In this document: positions 1,244-6,570 of the stretch, piece by piece
How positions within the stretch are numbered: the first letter of the stretch is position 1
Layout of the letters: the number at the start of each line of letters is the position of its first letter
IMG/VR virus record: IMGVR_UViG_2534681705_000013
Coordinates: 1 to 20,052 of that record
Direction: 5' to 3' (one strand)
Origin: a virus
Lineage: Duplodnaviria; Heunggongvirae; Uroviricota; Caudoviricetes
DNA: 20,052 bases
Translations under genes and position numbers: made by a program
The notes under the pieces: model-generated
What the model saw: only the letters and a program-made list of their open reading frames with translations
Databases searched by the model: none
Told to the model about the DNA's origin: nothing

Positions 1244-1500
1244 CAGCGCAGTACCTCCTGCACCAGTTTTTCAAACTTTCCAACTTTGGTTTCCAGCTCC
1301 GCCACACAATCCACCAGCTCATCCACTGCTTTTTGTGCGCGATGTTTCGCCTGCATCAGTTCCCTGAGCGCTGGTACCATATCCCGACGAATGGCATCTT
1401 TTGTTACACCTGTTTTTTCCAGTTGTTCCGCCTGCCGCAACATTTCCTGTGCCTGTTTACGTAATTGCTCAGGGGTAAAAGTCATTGTCTGGTTGTTCAA
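1243..1500 (-). CDS. hypothetical small coiled-coil protein
   Basis: 85-aa ORF rich in charged helix-forming residues; start overlaps the helicase stop by 4 bp and its stop overlaps the Q start, indicating one operon. Confidence 0.45.
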   Translation of the reverse strand: MNNQTMTFTPEQLRKQAQEMLRQAEQLEKTGVTKDAIRRDMVPALRELMQAKHRAQKAVDELVDCVAELETKVGKFEKLVQEVLR

Positions 1501-2888
1501 AAGAAACGCTCCATCTTACTGCTGTCAGTTCGTTTGTTGCTGTATCTGCGCGGCTGGGGCTGTTGCATTGGGGTGGAAAGAACCTGTGCGCTTTCCTGAT
1601 CCACAGGCAGAAAATGTCCGTTATAAAAACGCCGGTAAACCGTCCCCAGAGAACCGTTACGCTGTTTCGTGATATTGATTTCTGCGATGCCCCTGGCCTG
1701 CGTATCCGGGTTGTACACTTCATCCCTGTAAAGCATCAGAATGATGTCTGCATCCGCCTCTATTTCTCCGGAATTTTTCAGGTCTGAGTTCATCGGACGT
1801 TTATTGGGTCTGGACTCCACACCGCGGGAGAGCTGACTCAGCGCAATCAACGGAAAACCACCGGATTTTGCCAGGCCTTTAAGCCCCTTTGAGATTTCAC
1901 CCACGGCAAGGTCATGACGCCCCGTGGTTCGGGTTTTTATCAGTCCGAGATAATCAACCACCACCAGCGCCGTTTCCGGATGTTTAATCAGGTGGTGTTT
2001 CGTTGTTGCGCATATCTCGTCAATGGTCAGGTTCGCCTGGTCCACCATCCAGATATTGCGCCCGGTCATCCGCCCCACTCCTTGTGAGAAACGTGCCCAG
2101 TCTTCGTCTTCAAAGTGAGTGACAGATTTCAGGCGTGATACCGGCATTCCTCCAGCCGCAGATACCATGCGCTCACCAATCTGGATGTTCGCCATTTCCA
2201 TTGTGAACAGAAGAACACCATGCCCCTGCTCAGTCACCTTGTCGATGATATCCAGCGCCAGTTCGGTTTTACCCATCGAAGGACGAGCCGCAATAAATAC
2301 CAGGTCGCCGGGTTCCATACCGCCTGTTTTTGCGTCCAGTTCATCAATACCGGTCATCAGCGTCCTGGATTTCTCCAGCCCCTGATTCCGGCATTCAACA
2401 CGTTCAACCACTTCCGGAAGCACATCATCAATATGTACCGGCTGAATAATACCCTTCCCCGTCGACAATGAGGCCATCATGTTCTGCGCATCCTTCAGAG
2501 CATCTTCAGCTGCTTCACAGGTATGCGCATCACGTAATTTCTGCAGCGCCTCATTCAGCGTTTTTTCTGCATCGCGCAATGCGGCATTGCGCCGCAACGC
2601 TGCAACATAGTGCTCCAGTGAAGACTTCACCCAGGTTTTGCGCCCGGTATCAGTAATCACCGGGGCAAGTTCCGGCATCTCATTACACAGCAGCACGGGG
2701 TCAATCACACCTGAAACACGGGCCTGTCTGCAGATACCTGTGTAGATATCCCGATACGCTCGCACAGAAAAAACGTCCGCCGACAGTGTGGCCAGAATAT
2801 CCATCACTTCATGATCTGCCCCACGCAGAAAGAACGCGCCAATGACAGCGCCTTCCAGGTCATCGTTACGCCAGACTGGTGTTGTCAT
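1497..2888 (-). CDS. replicative DNA helicase, DnaB family (phage-encoded)
   Basis: 463 aa; Walker A in FIAARPSMGKTELALD, DnaB C-terminal RecA-like domain features (VVDYLGLI, ALSQLSR). 4-bp overlap with the upstream loader gene. Confidence 0.9.
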   Translation of the reverse strand: MTTPVWRNDDLEGAVIGAFFLRGADHEVMDILATLSADVFSVRAYRDIYTGICRQARVSGVIDPVLLCNEMPELAPVITDTGRKTWVKSSLEHYVAALRRNAALRDAEKTLNEALQKLRDAHTCEAAEDALKDAQNMMASLSTGKGIIQPVHIDDVLPEVVERVECRNQGLEKSRTLMTGIDELDAKTGGMEPGDLVFIAARPSMGKTELALDIIDKVTEQGHGVLLFTMEMANIQIGERMVSAAGGMPVSRLKSVTHFEDEDWARFSQGVGRMTGRNIWMVDQANLTIDEICATTKHHLIKHPETALVVVDYLGLIKTRTTGRHDLAVGEISKGLKGLAKSGGFPLIALSQLSRGVESRPNKRPMNSDLKNSGEIEADADIILMLYRDEVYNPDTQARGIAEINITKQRNGSLGTVYRRFYNGHFLPVDQESAQVLSTPMQQPQPRRYSNKRTDSSKMERFF

Positions 2889-3772
2889 GCCGCCACACCT
2901 CTGATACGAGAACGGTAGCTGGGCCAGTTAAACGACAACCAGTTGCGCCCCCCGTCTGTGATCCTGTCGGCAATGCGGGGGCTGATGAACGCCCACAACT
3001 CTTCCGGTGAAAGGTTGCTGATCAGGATGGTGGGCAAGATACTTTCGTACCGGGCGTTAATAATTTCCTGCAAAATAGCCATTTCAGCTGCACTGCCAAA
3101 CTGAACGCCGACTTCGTCGATGATTAGCAAATCCATAGACGCATAATGCTCAATAACTTCATCCGCTGTTTTTTCGCTGTCATTCCGCCAGCAGTTTTTC
3201 ACAGCACGGGTAAGGCGCATCACGTCGGTGATCTCCACACTGGCCAGATGATTACGGATGATGTGTTTTGCCATTGATACCGCCAGATGATTTTTCCCGG
3301 TACCGCAACTGCCAGTCATAACAAGACTGGTGCCGTTCTCCAGCATATCTGGCCAGTTCTCCGCATAGCGGCGACAGGCTGCAAGATTTCTGGCTGCGTC
3401 AGGATTAACCTCCAGATAGTTATCAAACTCACAGTCCCGAAAACGCAGGGCAATTCCGGCGTTATCAGTCAGCTCTTCCGCCTTGAGGGACGACAGCTCC
3501 ATGATCAAATCGTTGGCCTCAGCGATCAAGCAGTCAGGGCAGCATGAAATTTTTTCTCTGTCCTCGCCATTGCGATCGCTCCACACCAGTATATGCGTAT
3601 GGTATTTACCGTGTTTTTCGCAATACCCGCGACCTTCACGCATCAGGCAGGAACGATAAGGCCATGGCTTTTCGCCCTTCTGAGCAAATGCAATCTCTGC
3701 CCGTAACTCATCCATTCGCGCCTGTAGTCTTGTTTGTTGTTCACGCAGGTTAAACGTCATCATCGCTGTCAC
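2885..3772 (-). CDS. DnaC/IstB-like AAA+ helicase loader
   Basis: 295 aa; Walker A LVMTGSCGTGKNHLA and Walker B LLIIDEVG; Cys/His cluster near the N-terminus; sits between the O-like initiator and the DnaB-like helicase. Confidence 0.8.
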   Translation of the reverse strand: MTAMMTFNLREQQTRLQARMDELRAEIAFAQKGEKPWPYRSCLMREGRGYCEKHGKYHTHILVWSDRNGEDREKISCCPDCLIAEANDLIMELSSLKAEELTDNAGIALRFRDCEFDNYLEVNPDAARNLAACRRYAENWPDMLENGTSLVMTGSCGTGKNHLAVSMAKHIIRNHLASVEITDVMRLTRAVKNCWRNDSEKTADEVIEHYASMDLLIIDEVGVQFGSAAEMAILQEIINARYESILPTILISNLSPEELWAFISPRIADRITDGGRNWLSFNWPSYRSRIRGVAA

Positions 3773-3773
3773 C

Positions 3774-4598
3774 TCAGAATGTCAATTTGTCACTGGATTT
3801 ACCGAATTTGTCAGACATGGCACCAAGGCCAGACAGGACATCGACCTGTCGCTGTCGCCCACCTCCGGGAGCGGCTGGCTGTTGCCAGAAATCTTCGAAG
3901 TGACGATCGGGTCCAAAGAACGTCGCAGCCTGCTTCACGAACTGTGTGCCGGTATTTCCTGTAGCACGTACCCAGGCGGCATACCGCTTCACACCATCAA
4001 GCATGGTCTCCGGTTTTATTCCCTCCCTGATACGGGCTTTCCAGGCTTTGAAGGCTGCTGACTTGGAATTGCCACCAGCACGTTTGGGATATTCCTGCCA
4101 GGCCTGTTCAAATTCTGATGAATATCCCTGTCGGGCAGAACGCGCTGGTGCAGACGCGTCAGCGGATGCGCCAATAGTTGATTCATTGACTGGTTCTTTG
4201 ACTGGTTCAAAAGAGTGACTGGTTCTGGGTGAATCTCCTGCACTACCCCCTGGTGCAACTCCTGCACCACCTGGTGAATTTGCTGCACTAGGTAGTGAAT
4301 TATTTGCACTACCACCTGGTGAATCTTTTGCACCATCAAGACGAAGAAGATAAATATTGCTCGAGTTCCCTTTTTCACCTTTCCGGGAAACTTTTTTTAC
4401 CAGTCCGGATTCACAAAGAGCCGTAATATGATTCATCACAGAACGTTTGCTAATCTCGCACTGATCAGCAATATGCTGATAGCTGGGCCAGCACTCGCCC
4501 TGATCGCTGGCATTATCAGCCAGCTTAATCAGAACCAGTTTTCGCAACGGATTTCCCACGCGAATTTTCATCGCTTTCACCATCAGCTCCATGCTCAT
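3774..4598 (-). CDS. phage replication initiation protein (lambda O-like, N-terminal HTH)
   Basis: 274 aa; N-terminal winged-helix/HTH-like region (LRKLVLIKLADNASDQGECWPSYQHIADQCEISKRSV), a low-complexity Gly/Ser/Pro/Ala linker encoded by the iteron repeats, then a C-terminal domain; immediately upstream of the loader and helicase. Confidence 0.7.
   Translation of the reverse strand: MSMELMVKAMKIRVGNPLRKLVLIKLADNASDQGECWPSYQHIADQCEISKRSVMNHITALCESGLVKKVSRKGEKGNSSNIYLLRLDGAKDSPGGSANNSLPSAANSPGGAGVAPGGSAGDSPRTSHSFEPVKEPVNESTIGASADASAPARSARQGYSSEFEQAWQEYPKRAGGNSKSAAFKAWKARIREGIKPETMLDGVKRYAAWVRATGNTGTQFVKQAATFFGPDRHFEDFWQQPAAPGGGRQRQVDVLSGLGAMSDKFGKSSDKLTF
4187..4336. repeat. candidate phage replication origin: iteron-like direct repeats inside the O-like gene
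   Basis: Three copies of TGACTGGTTC (4187, 4198, 4216) followed by four ~20-bp repeats with core GGTGAAT-N6-7-TGCAC (about 4228, 4272, 4293, 4316), then an AT-rich stretch (~4336-4365). Confidence 0.55.
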
Positions 4599-4819
4599 AA
4601 CACACCTCCCAGGCGTTTAAACATTTTTCCGGACTGAAACGCCATCAACGGATAGCTAATGGTGTAGTTACGCCCCAGTAATTCACACACAACTTTCTGG
4701 CTTTCGGTGCTGACCAGGCAAACCCGCAGAACGTGACCGTTGCTGGTGGTGAACCACTGCCCCACACAGGGGCAACGGTTGTATCGGTGATACAGGGAGT
4801 TAACGATGCGGCGAATCAT
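4595..4819 (-). CDS. hypothetical protein
   Basis: 74-aa ORF; 4-bp overlaps with both neighbouring minus-strand genes suggest translational coupling in the replication operon. Confidence 0.4.
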   Translation of the reverse strand: MIRRIVNSLYHRYNRCPCVGQWFTTSNGHVLRVCLVSTESQKVVCELLGRNYTISYPLMAFQSGKMFKRLGGVL

Positions 4820-5049
4820 GGATGTACCTCCTGCACATCAGCCATGAGCATTTTACTGGCTGTTTCCAGCGCCTGGTCGGCGCTAATTTGCATGACAGCC
4901 AGTGAATGAGGAACGAAAGTCCCGGCATATTCTGTTTCACTGGTGGCGTGCTTATGCGCCCTGTCTGCAATAACAGGGATGTCAATAAGCGCATCCATCA
5001 GAGTTTTAATTACCGTAACAGTGGTATCTGAATAATGGTTATTACACAT
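4816..5049 (-). CDS. hypothetical protein
   Basis: ORF-track ORF 4816..5121; preferred start is ATG at 5049 (MCNNHYSD…), preceded by GGGAGG and overlapping the stop of the upstream Rha-domain gene (ATGTGTAA). Confidence 0.4.
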   Translation of the reverse strand: MCNNHYSDTTVTVIKTLMDALIDIPVIADRAHKHATSETEYAGTFVPHSLAVMQISADQALETASKMLMADVQEVHP

Positions 5050-5407
5050 GACGCGCCTCCCGTTGATTACAGCGGAAAGCGGTGTGACTGAGACTGGTTT
5101 CAGTTTCATGGAATGCTTCAATGCAGCTCTCGTAGTACCGCATTGTGCGCAGACTTAACCCAAGCTGAAGCATCATCAGGCCATCAAGGGTGATGTAATA
5201 ACCACGCAGGGAGTCACCATAGATGTGATAAGTACCCGGTATGAAATTGCGGGTAAAAAACTCGCGTGAGCAGTTCAGATACTCGATTTTGTCGACGATG
5301 TTCTGGTGCATGCGCTTAAAGTGGCAGGCAACATGCAGGGAGAAAATAACGGCCTTGCCGTTGACAACTTCAATTTTCAGGTATGGGGAAGTTGGGACTG
5401 TAGCCAT
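5042..5407 (-). CDS. phage regulatory protein, Rha family
   Basis: C-terminal 122 aa of ORF 5042..5833: KAVIFSLHVACHFKRMHQNIVDKIEYLNCSREFFTRNF…GDSLRGYYITLDGLMMLQLG…IEAFHETE matches the Rha-family pattern. ATG at 5407 is preceded by GGAGG. The in-frame upstream extension to 5833 has a TTG start and low-complexity composition. Confidence 0.55.
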   Translation of the reverse strand: MATVPTSPYLKIEVVNGKAVIFSLHVACHFKRMHQNIVDKIEYLNCSREFFTRNFIPGTYHIYGDSLRGYYITLDGLMMLQLGLSLRTMRYYESCIEAFHETETSLSHTAFRCNQREARHV

Positions 5408-5794
5408 GATGGCAGCCTCCGTATGCAATGGATAACTTCCACCACCGGAGGTTCCAATCTCACTGGTGGTGAACTGGACAGGGTTGGAACTACCGGCGCA
5501 TACGGAAACCGGCGAGCCTTTCGGCTCCCCTGCCCAGCCCACCATAATTCTGGCGTGCGTGAGCGCGGACGATAAAAAAGACGCTGGCGCGTCGTATATC
5601 GCCGTATGCAATTCCGGGGTTCCAATCCCGGCACCCGCTTTATAAGGTGCAGGGACAGTGTAACGTCCCGAAATTGCAGAATCAATATTTAGGCTTGAAA
5701 CATTCATATGCTTACTGGTATTTTTACTAACGCAAATGTTCTTGGATGTTACTGGCTTACTTCTCAGTGAAGTTGCCTTTACCAACGTTGAGCG

Positions 5795-5822
5795 AGCCGG
5801 GTCACTACCCGGCTTTTTTTTC
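5795..5822 (+). terminator. plus-strand intrinsic terminator inside the minus-strand operon
   Basis: 8-bp stem AGCCGGGT/ACCCGGCT, loop CACT, followed by a run of eight T on the plus strand. On the minus strand the hairpin is preceded by the A-run, not followed by U, so it is not a terminator there. Confidence 0.55.
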
Positions 5823-6570
5823 ACCGCTGCCAACCAATAACCTGAAATAACCCCATTTTCGGGTGATACCAGCGAGTCCCTCGCGGTTCTGCTTCCTCCA
5901 TAACCCGATAAAAAGCAGCCATAAACGGTTCCACAGCAACAATTGCGCGACGTGACAACAATCCGTCCGGCGTCATGAACTCATGGGTGTCTGTAGGAAT
6001 TTGATAGGCGTTCACCAGATTGCGGCATTTATCATCTGACAAACCGGTTTTTGCTTTCAGTTGGCGATATCCGGCATAGCCCTCACGAATGGTACCCCTT
6101 TTGATTTGCTCAACTGTTTCGGCAACATGGCTGACTTTTTCTTCCACCTGAGTGATCCGTTTCTGCTGACGAACGGCTTCAAGAGCCATCGCAGCAACCA
6201 TTTCGATTTCGCTCATTGGCTTACGGATCTGTTCTTCCAGTTCGCGCCAGCGATCTACCAGGCGAGCAGTGAATTCAGGGCAGAGCTGTGCGACGACAAT
6301 GATGCTGTCGCGTTTACCTTGTTCGCCTTCGAAGATGTAAGCACCTACATTTCGTTTTAATCCTAAGTTGTTGATTATTTCGAAATTCGCCATTGGCGCA
6401 CTTCGAATAATCCCCTTATCCATGAGCCTTTCAATGCTGCGCTTAACATCTTTGTGTTGGCTACCCACCAACTCTGCGATCTCAACGCTGGTCATGGATG
6501 CTTTGTCGTTAAAAATTGCGGTGTTCACTGCCATCTCCTTACGGATAAATTCTTTTAAGATTCCGCACAT
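5821..6570 (-). CDS. phage regulatory protein, Rha/antirepressor-like DNA-binding domain
   Basis: 249-aa ORF; MTSVEIAELVGSQHKDVKRSIERL… fits the Rha-type motif. Start is ambiguous: ATG 6570, ATG 6534, or GTG 6528 (the last has AAGGAG at 6-nt spacing). Confidence 0.55.
   Translation of the reverse strand: MCGILKEFIRKEMAVNTAIFNDKASMTSVEIAELVGSQHKDVKRSIERLMDKGIIRSAPMANFEIINNLGLKRNVGAYIFEGEQGKRDSIIVVAQLCPEFTARLVDRWRELEEQIRKPMSEIEMVAAMALEAVRQQKRITQVEEKVSHVAETVEQIKRGTIREGYAGYRQLKAKTGLSDDKCRNLVNAYQIPTDTHEFMTPDGLLSRRAIVAVEPFMAAFYRVMEEAEPRGTRWYHPKMGLFQVIGWQR

What the first reader, a model, noticed from the sequence alone, without database searches (positions are those of the whole stretch)
4187..4365. 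Candidate replication origin: iterons embedded in the O-like initiator gene
Seen in sequence: TGACTGGTTC three times (4187, 4198, 4216) and four ~20-bp direct repeats with core GGTGAAT-N6-7-TGCAC (about 4228, 4272, 4293, 4316), followed by an AT-rich stretch. The repeats encode the Gly/Ser/Pro/Ala linker of the O-like protein. Established knowledge: ori-lambda lies inside gene O as four iterons plus an AT-rich region, encoding the interdomain linker. The spurious minus-strand ORF 4016..4378, with its repetitive HQVVVQ translation, is a side effect of these repeats.
Basis: partly seen in the sequence, partly recalled or inferred. Interest (0 to 1): 0.45.

Follow-up and report, generated by a model that had tools for sequence, protein, structure and literature searches.

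The report
Phage replication origin inside initiator gene
The repeats are real DNA signals, most likely the prophage's replication origin sitting inside its own initiator gene as in phage lambda, and next to them is a 38-base DNA box that stays almost unchanged in related prophages across many bacterial genera.

Summary
The repeats exist, with corrections. There are five (not four) 15-bp dyad-symmetric units, GTG(A/C)A-N5-TGCAC, at 4229-4333, and three exact TGACTGGTTC at 4187, 4199 and 4216. All lie in the linker of a minus-strand gene (3774-4598). That gene encodes a winged-helix (Pfam HTH_36) initiator upstream of DnaC-like and DnaB-like genes. It is not a detectable homolog of lambda O or P22 gp18.

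In 57 close homologs the repeat region varies at codon positions 1+2 but hardly at position 3. In 43 of 72 distant loci at least one repeat is read in another frame. Repeat half-sites co-vary with the recognition helix.

So these are initiator-binding iterons, and the lambda/P22-style origin reading is supported by comparison, not by experiment.

The TGACTGGTTC copies belong to a 38-nt box abutting the last iteron. It is conserved at synonymous sites in 72 of 80 prophages from Pseudomonas to Shewanella. It is independent of iteron type and marks the junction with eight unrelated C-terminal domains. I infer it is the unwinding or loading element.

The parts
3774..4598 (-). Initiator gene, 274 aa. 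It comprises an N-terminal winged-helix domain, an iteron-encoded disordered linker, the box peptide and a C-terminal domain.
   Evidence: ORF list and translation. Pfam HTH_36 scores 43.6 bits against a cut-off of 25. PHROG 270 and 8540 are named 'replication initiation (O-like)'.
4335..4598 (-). N-terminal winged helix-turn-helix domain (aa 1-88). The recognition helix is about aa 51-64 and the beta-hairpin wing is aa 67-85.
   Evidence: AlphaFold model: pLDDT is 86-95 over most of aa 1-70 and 73-81 over the wing. Elements are H3-11, H17-29, H40-47, H51-64, E67-73, E79-85. Best PDB matches are generic wHTH folds, including the DnaD N-domain 2v79.
4319..4333 (-). Iteron 1 (nearest the N-domain); core GTGCAAAAGATTCAC in gene orientation.
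4295..4309 (-). Iteron 2; core GTGCAAATAATTCAC in gene orientation.
4274..4288 (-). Iteron 3; core GTGCAGCAAATTCAC in gene orientation.
4253..4267 (.). Iteron 4; perfect palindrome GTGCAGGAGTTGCAC.
   Evidence: matches on both strands, inverted repeats I1 and I2.
4229..4243 (-). Iteron 5; core GTGCAGGAGATTCAC. Its last base is the first base of the box.
   Evidence: In 72 related loci the last iteron always abuts the box.
4180..4229 (-). Conserved box: CCCA-GAACCAGTCA-CTCTTTT-GAACCAGTCA-AA-GAACCAGTCA-ATGAATC. There are three 10-mers here, at 4216-4225, 4199-4208 and 4187-4196; most relatives have two (38 nt). It is the candidate unwinding, loading or second-binding element, and it marks the mosaic junction.
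   Evidence: The 12 box codons use one codon in 95-100% of 68 distinct sequences.
4338..4400 (.). It encodes the wing of the wHTH and is probably a composition by-product rather than the unwinding element.
   Evidence: It is not kept in hosts above 55% GC.
3774..4178 (-). C-terminal domain (aa about 141-274). It is an exchangeable module, presumably the adaptor to the helicase and loader encoded downstream.
   Evidence: The same domain (87% identity) is fused to an unrelated N-module in phage Stx1_499. Eight unrelated C-terminal families follow the box in 67 loci. PHROG 1701 is named 'DnaD-like helicase loader'.
2885..3772 (-). DnaC/IstB-like AAA+ helicase loader gene, immediately downstream of the initiator gene.
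   Evidence: Pfam IstB_IS21 at 2.1e-15; PHROG 50; NCBIfam DnaC below its cut-off.
1497..2888 (-). DnaB-family replicative helicase gene.
   Evidence: Pfam DnaB_C at 5.6e-73; PHROG 19.
4016..4378 (-). Alternative-frame ORF through the iterons and box (…VVQEIHPEPVTLLNQS…). It is a by-product in this window.
   Evidence: The same frame forms the tails of frameshifted initiators in databases.

Best explanation
Window 4180-4333 is most likely the prophage's replication origin, embedded in the linker-coding part of its own initiator gene.

Shown by comparison:
- Five dyad-symmetric 15-bp iterons, spaced about two helical turns apart, are constrained as DNA.
- Their half-site sequence is matched to the recognition helix of the winged-helix N-domain encoded just upstream.
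- The last iteron abuts a nearly invariant box with two to four GAACCAGTCA 10-mers.

Inferred mechanism:
- Dimers of the N-domain bind the iterons and build an O-some-like nucleoprotein complex.
- The box, with the low-GC DNA just beyond it, is where the duplex opens. It may be held as single strand by the conserved part of the initiator.
- The exchangeable C-terminal domain recruits the phage DnaC-like loader and DnaB-like helicase to that spot.
- The encoded peptide (aa 89-139) is a disordered passenger.
- The identical 38-nt box also provides a homology patch at which N-modules (origin plus origin-binding domain) and C-modules (helicase adaptor) are reshuffled among phages.
For: Repeats far beyond chance:
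- The repeats occur only at this locus in the 20-kb window.

DNA-level constraint in 57 close homologs:
- In the iteron region, variable sites are 23/74 at codon positions 1+2 but 5/37 at position 3. In the N-domain they are 12/174 and 41/87 (Fisher p = 3e-7).
- Position-3 diversity is about 0 over window 4328-4194.

Distant homologs retrieved through N-domain peptides only (80 prophages in Pseudomonas, Enterobacterales, Aeromonas, Shewanella, Marinomonas and others):
- 72 loci have an array of 1-7 dyad units (mode 5).
- Spacings are almost only 21, 22, 23 or 24 nt, and the last array always abuts the box.
- 43 of 72 loci have 22/23-nt spacings, so the same DNA unit is read in two frames (GSAGDSP versus VVQEIHQ).

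Specificity covariation:
- S[KR]RSV[MI]NH goes with TGCAC/TTCAC (53 loci).
- ..MRH goes with GTCAC.
- [ST]RTTAINH goes with TACAC.
- DRSTVRKH goes with TAGGC..AAGCA.
- phi24B SRSTVKSH goes with GGGCA..TGCCC.

Copy-number variation typical of iterons:
- Arrays range from 3 to 8 copies; cdtI has a 66-bp duplication.

The box:
- 72 of 80 loci match at 29 or more of 38 nt, and 76 of 80 have at least two 10-mers.
- All 12 box codons use one codon in at least 95% of sequences, against 0 of 40 conserved N-domain codons (p = 5e-12).
- Shewanella variants with a 2-nt shorter spacer read the first 10-mer in another frame.
- One locus changed both 10-mers identically.
- The box is the local GC minimum in hosts above 55% GC.

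Geometry and context:
- The order N-domain, iterons, conserved element, C-domain is the same as in lambda and in the annotated P22 rep_origin.
- Helicase-loader and helicase genes follow directly.
- The linker is predicted disordered (pLDDT about 42).
Against: - No experiment bears on this family. I found no paper that maps an origin for it, and the two papers I read on Stx-phage replication regions do not describe one.
- The box is not AT-rich (44% GC in this window). No pronounced low-stability region exists in this gene: the least stable 30-mers are 4424-4453, 4347-4376 and 4173-4202, all about -35 kcal against a mean of -41.
- There are no DnaA boxes and no promoter-like sites at the locus.
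- What recognises the 10-mers is unknown.
- Binding sites inside a gene could also serve autoregulation or copy control.
- Conservation alone cannot separate a DNA function from an RNA function for the box.
Confidence: 0.72

Rival explanations
1. The repeats are initiator-binding sites but not the origin. They would act as an intragenic operator or roadblock for autoregulation, or as copy-control ('handcuffing') sites, with the true origin elsewhere in the prophage.
For: The covariation with the recognition helix proves only binding specificity, not origin function. No strong unwinding region adjoins the array in this window. Plasmid Rep proteins commonly autoregulate through their own binding sites (general knowledge).
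Against: No further copy of either motif exists anywhere else in the 20-kb window, including upstream promoter regions, even with one mismatch allowed. The mid-gene position, two-turn phasing and adjacent conserved element copy the lambda and P22 origin layout. The array plus box travels as one module with the DNA-binding domain across eight different C-terminal and helicase systems.
Confidence: 0.1
2. The repeats are only a coding repeat: a low-complexity Gly/Ser/Pro/Ala linker that expanded by slippage, with no DNA-level function.
For: The region encodes a disordered linker, and the copy number varies.
Against: Synonymous sites are frozen while amino acids vary. Identical DNA units are read in two frames inside one gene in 43 of 72 loci. 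Each unit is dyad-symmetric, and its half-site tracks the recognition helix.
Confidence: 0.02
3. The 38-nt box is conserved for a reason other than replication. Candidates are a second reading frame (dual coding of …HPEPVTLLNQS…), an mRNA-level signal, or a dedicated recombination site for exchanging C-terminal modules.
For: Four variable box positions (13, 19, 20, 25) are nonsynonymous in the initiator frame but synonymous in the +1 frame (my reading). Many database proteins end in that frame. The box sits exactly at the mosaic junction.
Against: The +1 frame is closed by TAG in at least 14 of 80 loci (TTT>TTA and AAT>ATA variants). The two frameshifted genome loci look like truncated pseudogenes (L224, L253). 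The variable positions are equally well described as the tolerated positions of a repeated 10-mer, GAAYCAGTMA. One locus changed both 10-mers in concert. There is no Rfam match and no secondary structure. The box keeps a fixed register to the last iteron. A passive recombination joint would not be held invariant between Pseudomonas, Vibrio and Escherichia phages whose flanking synonymous sites are saturated.
Confidence: 0.15

Closest known systems
ori-lambda inside gene O (phage lambda and lambda-type Stx phages)
   Same: The origin lies in the middle of the initiator gene. It has four to six dyad-symmetric iterons at 20-24-bp spacing that encode an interdomain linker. An N-terminal origin-binding domain is followed by an exchangeable C-terminal domain that recruits the helicase loader. 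A conserved element lies immediately downstream of the last iteron (PMC7466680).
   Different: The initiator is not a detectable homolog: there is no Pfam Phage_rep_O hit and no BLASTP similarity. The iteron sequence is unrelated. The flanking element is a 44-47% GC box of GAACCAGTCA 10-mers rather than the about 80% AT ACAAAAGA-type tract. The partners are DnaC-like and DnaB-like proteins rather than lambda P plus the host DnaB.
P22 origin inside gene 18 (and phage L gene 18)
   Same: A rep_origin is annotated within the initiator gene. It has four ~20-bp repeats followed downstream by a conserved tract, and a phage DnaB-type helicase gene comes next (bioRxiv 10.1101/2020.10.05.325894).
   Different: There is no detectable protein similarity to gp18. 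The repeats are different (ATCGGTAAAAC type), and the AT-rich tract is shared with lambda rather than with this family.
Iteron plasmid origins (RK2/TrfA, F/RepE, pPS10/RepA) with repeated 13-mers in the unwinding element
   Same: Winged-helix initiators bind directly repeated iterons. An adjacent element with short direct repeats is opened, and its single strand is bound sequence-specifically by the initiator (PMC4081077, PMC10602881). This is the model I borrow for the 10-mer box.
   Different: In plasmids the origin is intergenic, the Rep proteins have two WH domains (Rep_3 and similar families, not hit here), DnaA boxes are usual (none here) and the unwinding element is AT-rich.
HTH_36 'HTH domain proteins' of the Eru5, Eru6, Eru8, Eru11 and Eru13 replication regions of Stx phages
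   Same: This is the same protein family. Stx2a_WGPS2, the Eru6 reference phage, carries an 83%-identical gene with the same iterons and box (PMC8951638).
   Different: Those papers classify gene content only. No origin, repeats or function are described for these proteins.
DnaD-like initiators and primosome proteins of Firmicutes and their phages
   Same: There is a winged-helix N-domain. Pfam DnaD_N gives a sub-threshold hit, and the DnaD N-domain 2v79 is among the fold matches. Some PHROG relatives of the C-terminal domain are labelled 'DnaD-like helicase loader'.
   Different: The hit is below the Pfam cut-off (24.3 against 27 bits). The fold match is generic wHTH (rank 31, TM about 0.43-0.5). 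DnaD is not known to me to be encoded around its own iteron array.

Membership tests
lambda-type origin (ori-lambda / gene O) | Initiator is a homolog of lambda O (Pfam Phage_rep_O N-terminal domain) | tested here: not met
   Pfam lists HTH_36, DnaD_N, B-block_TFIIIC and HTH_20 only. The best BLASTP alignment to lambda O has E = 0.066 over 26 aa, in a non-equivalent region.
lambda-type origin (ori-lambda / gene O) | Array of at least 4 dyad-symmetric iterons, about two helical turns apart, in the linker-coding middle of the initiator gene | tested here: met
   Five units at 4229-4333 with spacing 24/21/21/24. The same layout is seen in 72 related loci. The lambda layout was read for comparison.
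lambda-type origin (ori-lambda / gene O) | Strongly AT-rich tract (ACAAAAGA-type) immediately downstream of the last iteron | tested here: not met
   Downstream of the last iteron lies the 44% GC box, followed by GC-rich DNA. Some low-GC relatives do have A-runs after the box.
lambda-type origin (ori-lambda / gene O) | Initiator binds the iterons and replication starts there | not testable with these tools
   There is only indirect support: covariation of recognition helix with half-site and DNA-level constraint.
P22 gene 18 origin | Initiator homologous to gp18 | tested here: not met
   BLASTP best E = 5.4.
Pfam HTH_36 (PF13730) winged-helix proteins | Score above the curated gathering threshold; wHTH fold | tested here: met
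   43.6 bits against a cut-off of 25, over aa 17-67. The model shows three helices, a recognition helix and a beta-hairpin wing. PDB matches are wHTH folds.
DnaD family (DnaD_N, PF21984) | Score above the gathering threshold | tested here: not met
   24.3 bits against a cut-off of 27. The fold match to 2v79 is no better than to generic MarR, ArsR or TFE winged helices.
Iteron-plasmid origin (Rep_3-type) | Rep with tandem WH1-WH2 domains; DnaA boxes; AT-rich DUE with 13-mers | tested here: not met
   No Rep family hit. No DnaA box within 500 bp; the window total of 2 is at chance. The direct 10-mer repeats next to the iterons are present but not AT-rich.
The family defined here (MSMxLM…KLADNA…GECWPSY wHTH initiator with iterons and box) | Conserved N-terminal 48 aa, then an iteron array, then CCCAGAACCAGTCACTCTTTTGAACCAGTCAATGAACC abutting the last iteron | tested here: met
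   The window has all three features. 72 of 80 independently retrieved loci match the box at 29 or more of 38 nt.

The most novel reading that the evidence does not exclude
The GAACCAGTCA box would be a previously undescribed, family-wide cis element of phage replication origins. It would be a sequence-specific opening or helicase-loading site, not a merely AT-rich one, recognised on double or single strand by the invariant N-terminal part of the winged-helix initiator. That would be comparable to DnaA-trios or to Rep binding of DUE 13-mers. Because it is identical in phages of many genera, it would also serve as the universal recombination joint that lets any 'origin plus binding domain' module pair with any helicase-recruiting module.
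Probability: 0.35. Interest if true: 0.7.

Novelty: new variant of a known kind. Interest (0 to 1): 0.55.

Why it matters
This gene is found in 1230 of 5426 complete E. coli genomes, where RefSeq calls it only 'helix-turn-helix domain-containing protein'. It also occurs in Shiga-toxin phages whose replication modules (the Eru types with HTH_36 proteins) have no described origin (PMC8951638), although those authors link phage replication to EHEC virulence.

The analysis yields four things:
- A base-level origin prediction for this module.
- A simple rule for finding the origin in a family spread across Gammaproteobacteria: wHTH gene, then dyad repeats, then the box.
- A first recognition-helix to half-site table for predicting replication specificity and incompatibility between co-resident prophages.
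- An unusually clean example of a non-coding signal frozen inside a coding sequence, read in two frames and kept in genomes from about 40% to 65% GC.

If the box is a sequence-specific opening or loading site, it differs from the AT-rich elements of the textbook phage and plasmid origins.

Tried and rejected
- Homology to lambda O and P22 gp18: none by BLASTP or Pfam. 'O-like' is therefore an analogy only.
- PDB sequence search: nothing relevant.
I rejected it as the primary candidate. It remains one of three weak stability minima.
- Hairpin or ssi/PAS-type structure in the box: none, with z-scores of +0.56 and -0.32.
- Known RNA family: none.
- Promoter or terminator at the locus: none.
- DnaA boxes: none nearby.
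- Dual coding of the box: considered because several variable positions are synonymous in the +1 frame. I rejected it as the main cause because TAG stops close that frame in at least 14 loci.
- Literature search for the 10-mer itself, and for iterons or origins of HTH_36 phage initiators: only primer hits and no description. Older subscription papers could not be searched.
- The protein database search returned mostly short or partial proteins. It was useful only for building the structure alignment and for spotting frameshifted genes.
- Plasmid search: about 40-kb 'plasmid' records carry the gene, but none has origin annotation that would settle function.
Full report
**What is in the sequence.**
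The finding lies inside ORF 3774..4598 on the minus strand (274 aa). On the plus strand, TGACTGGTTC occurs exactly at 4187, 4199 and 4216 and nowhere else in the window, even with one mismatch allowed. The ~21-24-bp units number five, not four. Their cores GTG(A/C)A-N5-TGCAC lie at 4229, 4253, 4274, 4295 and 4319 (6 hits against 0.08 expected, 0 of 100 shuffles). Relaxing the pattern by one mismatch adds no site elsewhere in the 20 kb. The units encode aa 88-125, the Gly/Ser/Pro/Ala stretch. The 'AT-rich stretch' at 4338-4400 is 36.5% GC, against 45% for the window. ORF 4016..4378(-) is the +1 frame of the same strand.

**The gene and its neighbours.**
- The product has a Pfam HTH_36 domain (43.6 bits, cut-off 25) and a sub-threshold DnaD_N hit. 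It has no Phage_rep_O hit.
- PHROGs place it in 'replication initiation (O-like)' families.
- BLASTP finds no similarity to lambda O or P22 gp18.
- A model built from 27 sequences gives a confident winged helix for aa 1-88 and a disordered aa 91-131. PDB matches are generic winged helices, including the DnaD N-domain.
- Directly downstream on the same strand are a DnaC/IstB-like ATPase gene (2885-3772) and a DnaB-family helicase gene (1497-2888).
- The gene occurs in 1230 of 5426 complete E. coli genomes, annotated only as 'helix-turn-helix domain-containing protein'.
- It also occurs in many Stx phages, SfV, mEp460 and cdtI.

I aligned 57 distinct genes at 82-98% protein identity.
- In the N-domain, variable sites are 12/174 at codon positions 1+2 and 41/87 at position 3, the normal coding pattern.
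- In the iteron region the pattern is inverted: 23/74 at positions 1+2 and 5/37 at position 3 (Fisher p = 3e-7).
- Position-3 diversity is essentially zero from window 4328 to 4194.

Amino acids change (P/L, S/G, A/V) while the DNA arms stay fixed. This is the opposite of 'conserved as protein with synonymous variation'.

**Distant homologs.**
I retrieved 80 prophage loci from one-genome-per-species contigs. Only two N-domain peptide patterns were used, so the retrieval could not favour any DNA downstream. Hosts include Pseudomonas, Enterobacter, Proteus, Xenorhabdus, Aeromonas, Shewanella, Marinomonas, Vreelandella and Microbulbifer.
- In 72 loci an array of dyad units (5-N5-5; 1-7 copies, mode 5) fills the same place.
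- Spacings are almost only 21, 22, 23 or 24 nt (91, 42, 40 and 76 instances), and the array always ends at the same downstream box.
- In 43 of 72 loci a 23+22 pair puts one unit in another codon phase. The same DNA, GTGCAGGAGATTCACCAGG, is then read as GSAGDSPG in one unit and VVQEIHQG in the next.
- Phage and viral-contig relatives show at least eight other unit sequences in the same place. Examples are GGGGCAGGAGCTGCCC in phi24B, GTGACAAAATGTCAC in Vibrio phage D160, GTGTAAAAATTACAC and TATGCCACCAGATGGCA.
- Copy number reaches 8, through a 66-bp duplication in cdtI.

**Covariation with the recognition helix.**

| Recognition helix | Half-site |
|---|---|
| S[KR]RSV[MI]NH (53 loci) | TGCAC/TTCAC |
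| SKRSVMRH, and DKRTAMRH of D160 | GTCAC |
| [ST]RTTAINH | TACAC |
| DRSTVRKH | TAGGC…AAGCA |
| SRSTVKSH / GRSTVKVH | GGGCA…TGCCC |

Together these results show that the repeats are DNA sites matched to the protein encoded around them. That is what iterons are.

**The box.**
The three TGACTGGTTC copies are the minus-strand 10-mers GAACCAGTCA of an element that starts at the last base of the last iteron. In most relatives it reads CCCAGAACCAGTCACTCTTTTGAACCAGTCAATGAACC (38 nt). In this window it is 50 nt (4180-4229), because a 12-nt unit is present once more.
- In the unbiased set, 72 of 80 loci match at 29 or more of 38 nt, and 76 of 80 have at least two 10-mers.
- Among 68 distinct sequences, each of the 12 box codons uses a single codon in 95-100% of cases. 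These include AGA, AGT, TCT and CCA, also in hosts above 55% GC. The 13th codon is free.
- None of 40 conserved N-domain codons exceeds 84% for its commonest codon (12/12 against 0/40, p = 5e-12).
- Variation falls at a few fixed positions and is mostly nonsynonymous (T/I, H/N, F/L/S/P, P/S).
- Shewanella and Parashewanella variants have a 2-nt shorter spacer, so the first 10-mer is translated as EPVT instead of RTSH.
- One Shewanella locus carries GAATCTATCA in both copies.
- More distant initiators keep a degenerate version: mEp554, LESphi3 with four GAACC units, and Vibrio D171.
- The box has no predicted secondary structure, no Rfam match and no promoter-like or DnaA-box sites.

**Modularity.**
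Protein similarity to other phages breaks at aa about 126-140. Some phages share only aa 1-138 and others only aa 126-274.
- Phage Stx1_499 joins an unrelated N-module, with repeats of its own, to this window's C-domain right after the box position.
- In 67 loci, eight mutually unrelated C-terminal families follow the box.

The unit that travels together is therefore N-domain plus iterons plus box. The box is a 38-bp identity patch at which recombination can exchange the helicase-adaptor half. The last step is an inference.

**Comparison with lambda and P22.**
I read both records.
- Lambda has four annotated iterons (39034-39118) followed at once by ACACAAAAGACACTATTACAAAAGAAAAAAG.
- P22 has a rep_origin annotated inside gene 18, with four repeats followed by ACACAAAAGACAATATACAAAAGAC.

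In both, a conserved element lies downstream of variable iterons in gene orientation, between the origin-binding and partner-binding halves of the initiator. The present locus has the same order, but with an unrelated protein, unrelated iterons and a different, non-AT-rich element.

**Where the DNA opens.**
This is not settled.
- In hosts above 55% GC, the box is the local GC minimum (0.45-0.48 against 0.55-0.65).
- In low-GC hosts, the minimum lies at the 3' end of the box and just after it. Several lineages have A-runs there.
- In this window, the stability minima on either side of the array are weak and similar.

I therefore favour the box side, by analogy with lambda, P22 and the repeated 13-mers of plasmid unwinding elements that Rep proteins bind as single strands (PMC4081077, PMC10602881). 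My confidence in that sub-claim is about 0.4.

**Rivals.**
- A pure coding repeat is excluded by the frame and synonymous-site data.
- Autoregulatory or copy-control sites with the origin elsewhere cannot be excluded without an experiment. However, there is no second site in the window, and the layout is that of known origins.
- For the box, dual coding was considered because positions 13, 19, 20 and 25 vary synonymously in the +1 frame. That frame carries TAG in at least 14 loci, and the pattern fits a repeated 10-mer, GAAYCAGTMA, equally well.

**Novelty and limits.**
An origin made of iterons inside the initiator gene is textbook for lambda and P22. Here it is found in a different, very widespread initiator family.
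- The papers I could search describe only gene content for this family. These are the Eru types of Stx phages with HTH_36 proteins, with the origin, repeats and function not discussed.
- No paper in the library contains the 10-mer in a phage context.
- Older subscription literature was not searchable, so an earlier mention cannot be ruled out.
- All functional statements rest on comparative sequence evidence. Binding, unwinding and origin activity remain to be tested.

Noticed in passing
window 4016-4378 (-); proteins P0013, P0026, P0028, P0037, P0039, P0056, P0061, P0070; loci L224, L253: Many database proteins of 99-156 aa are initiators frameshifted inside the iteron array. They end …VVQEIHPEPVTLLNQS(K/M)NQ*, which is the box read in the +1 frame, the same frame as the window's 120-aa alternative ORF. 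They are probably decayed prophage genes or slippage or sequencing errors in the repeats. A deliberate N-domain-only product was not excluded.
   Followed up: partly
L083 1766-1936 (phage cdtI); L093; L210: Iteron copy number varies by whole-unit duplications. cdtI has an exact 66-bp (three-unit) duplication giving 8 iterons, and L093 and L210 have 7. The number of 12-nt GAACCAGTCAAx units also varies from 2 to 4 (L057, L118 and L160 against the window's 3).
   Followed up: partly
L289 748-1656 (Stx1a-converting phage Stx1_499): Its 'replication protein O' has an unrelated N-terminal module (MRPSDLLLDFGHP…) with its own repeat-encoded linker (…ENTTEITSENTTES…). This is fused to the same C-terminal domain as the window protein (87% identity from TIGASADAS onward). 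The fusion shows module exchange at the position just after the box.
   Followed up: partly
L084 3900-3925 (P22 gene 18 origin): The fourth P22 repeat reads GAATCAGTCAAAC. It fits the 10-mer pattern GAAYCAGTMA of the box and sits between the other repeats and the AT-rich tract. It may be chance resemblance (P22 repeats are ATCGGTAAAAC-like).
   Followed up: no
L263 (Shewanella profunda), about 385-420 nt into the gene: Both 10-mers of the box read GAATCTATCA. The same two-base change in both copies is as expected if one factor reads both.
   Followed up: no
window 5042-5833 (-) and 5821-6570 (-): Two adjacent Rha/Ash-type (antirepressor-like) genes lie upstream of the replication genes. Small ORFs 4595-4819 and 4816-5121 match PHROGs of unknown function.
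   Followed up: no
plasmid records H93, H94, H96, H102-H107: Several 28-54-kb records deposited as plasmids carry this initiator N-domain, including six from Arsenophonus nasoniae. Others come from Klebsiella, Salmonella, Microbulbifer and Pasteurella. They could be phage-plasmids or circular phage genomes replicating from this kind of origin.
   Followed up: no
window 3774-4598; E. coli genomes: The gene is present in 1230 of 5426 complete E. coli genomes, with up to 4 copies per genome. Co-resident prophages with the same iteron type could interfere with each other's replication.
   Followed up: no
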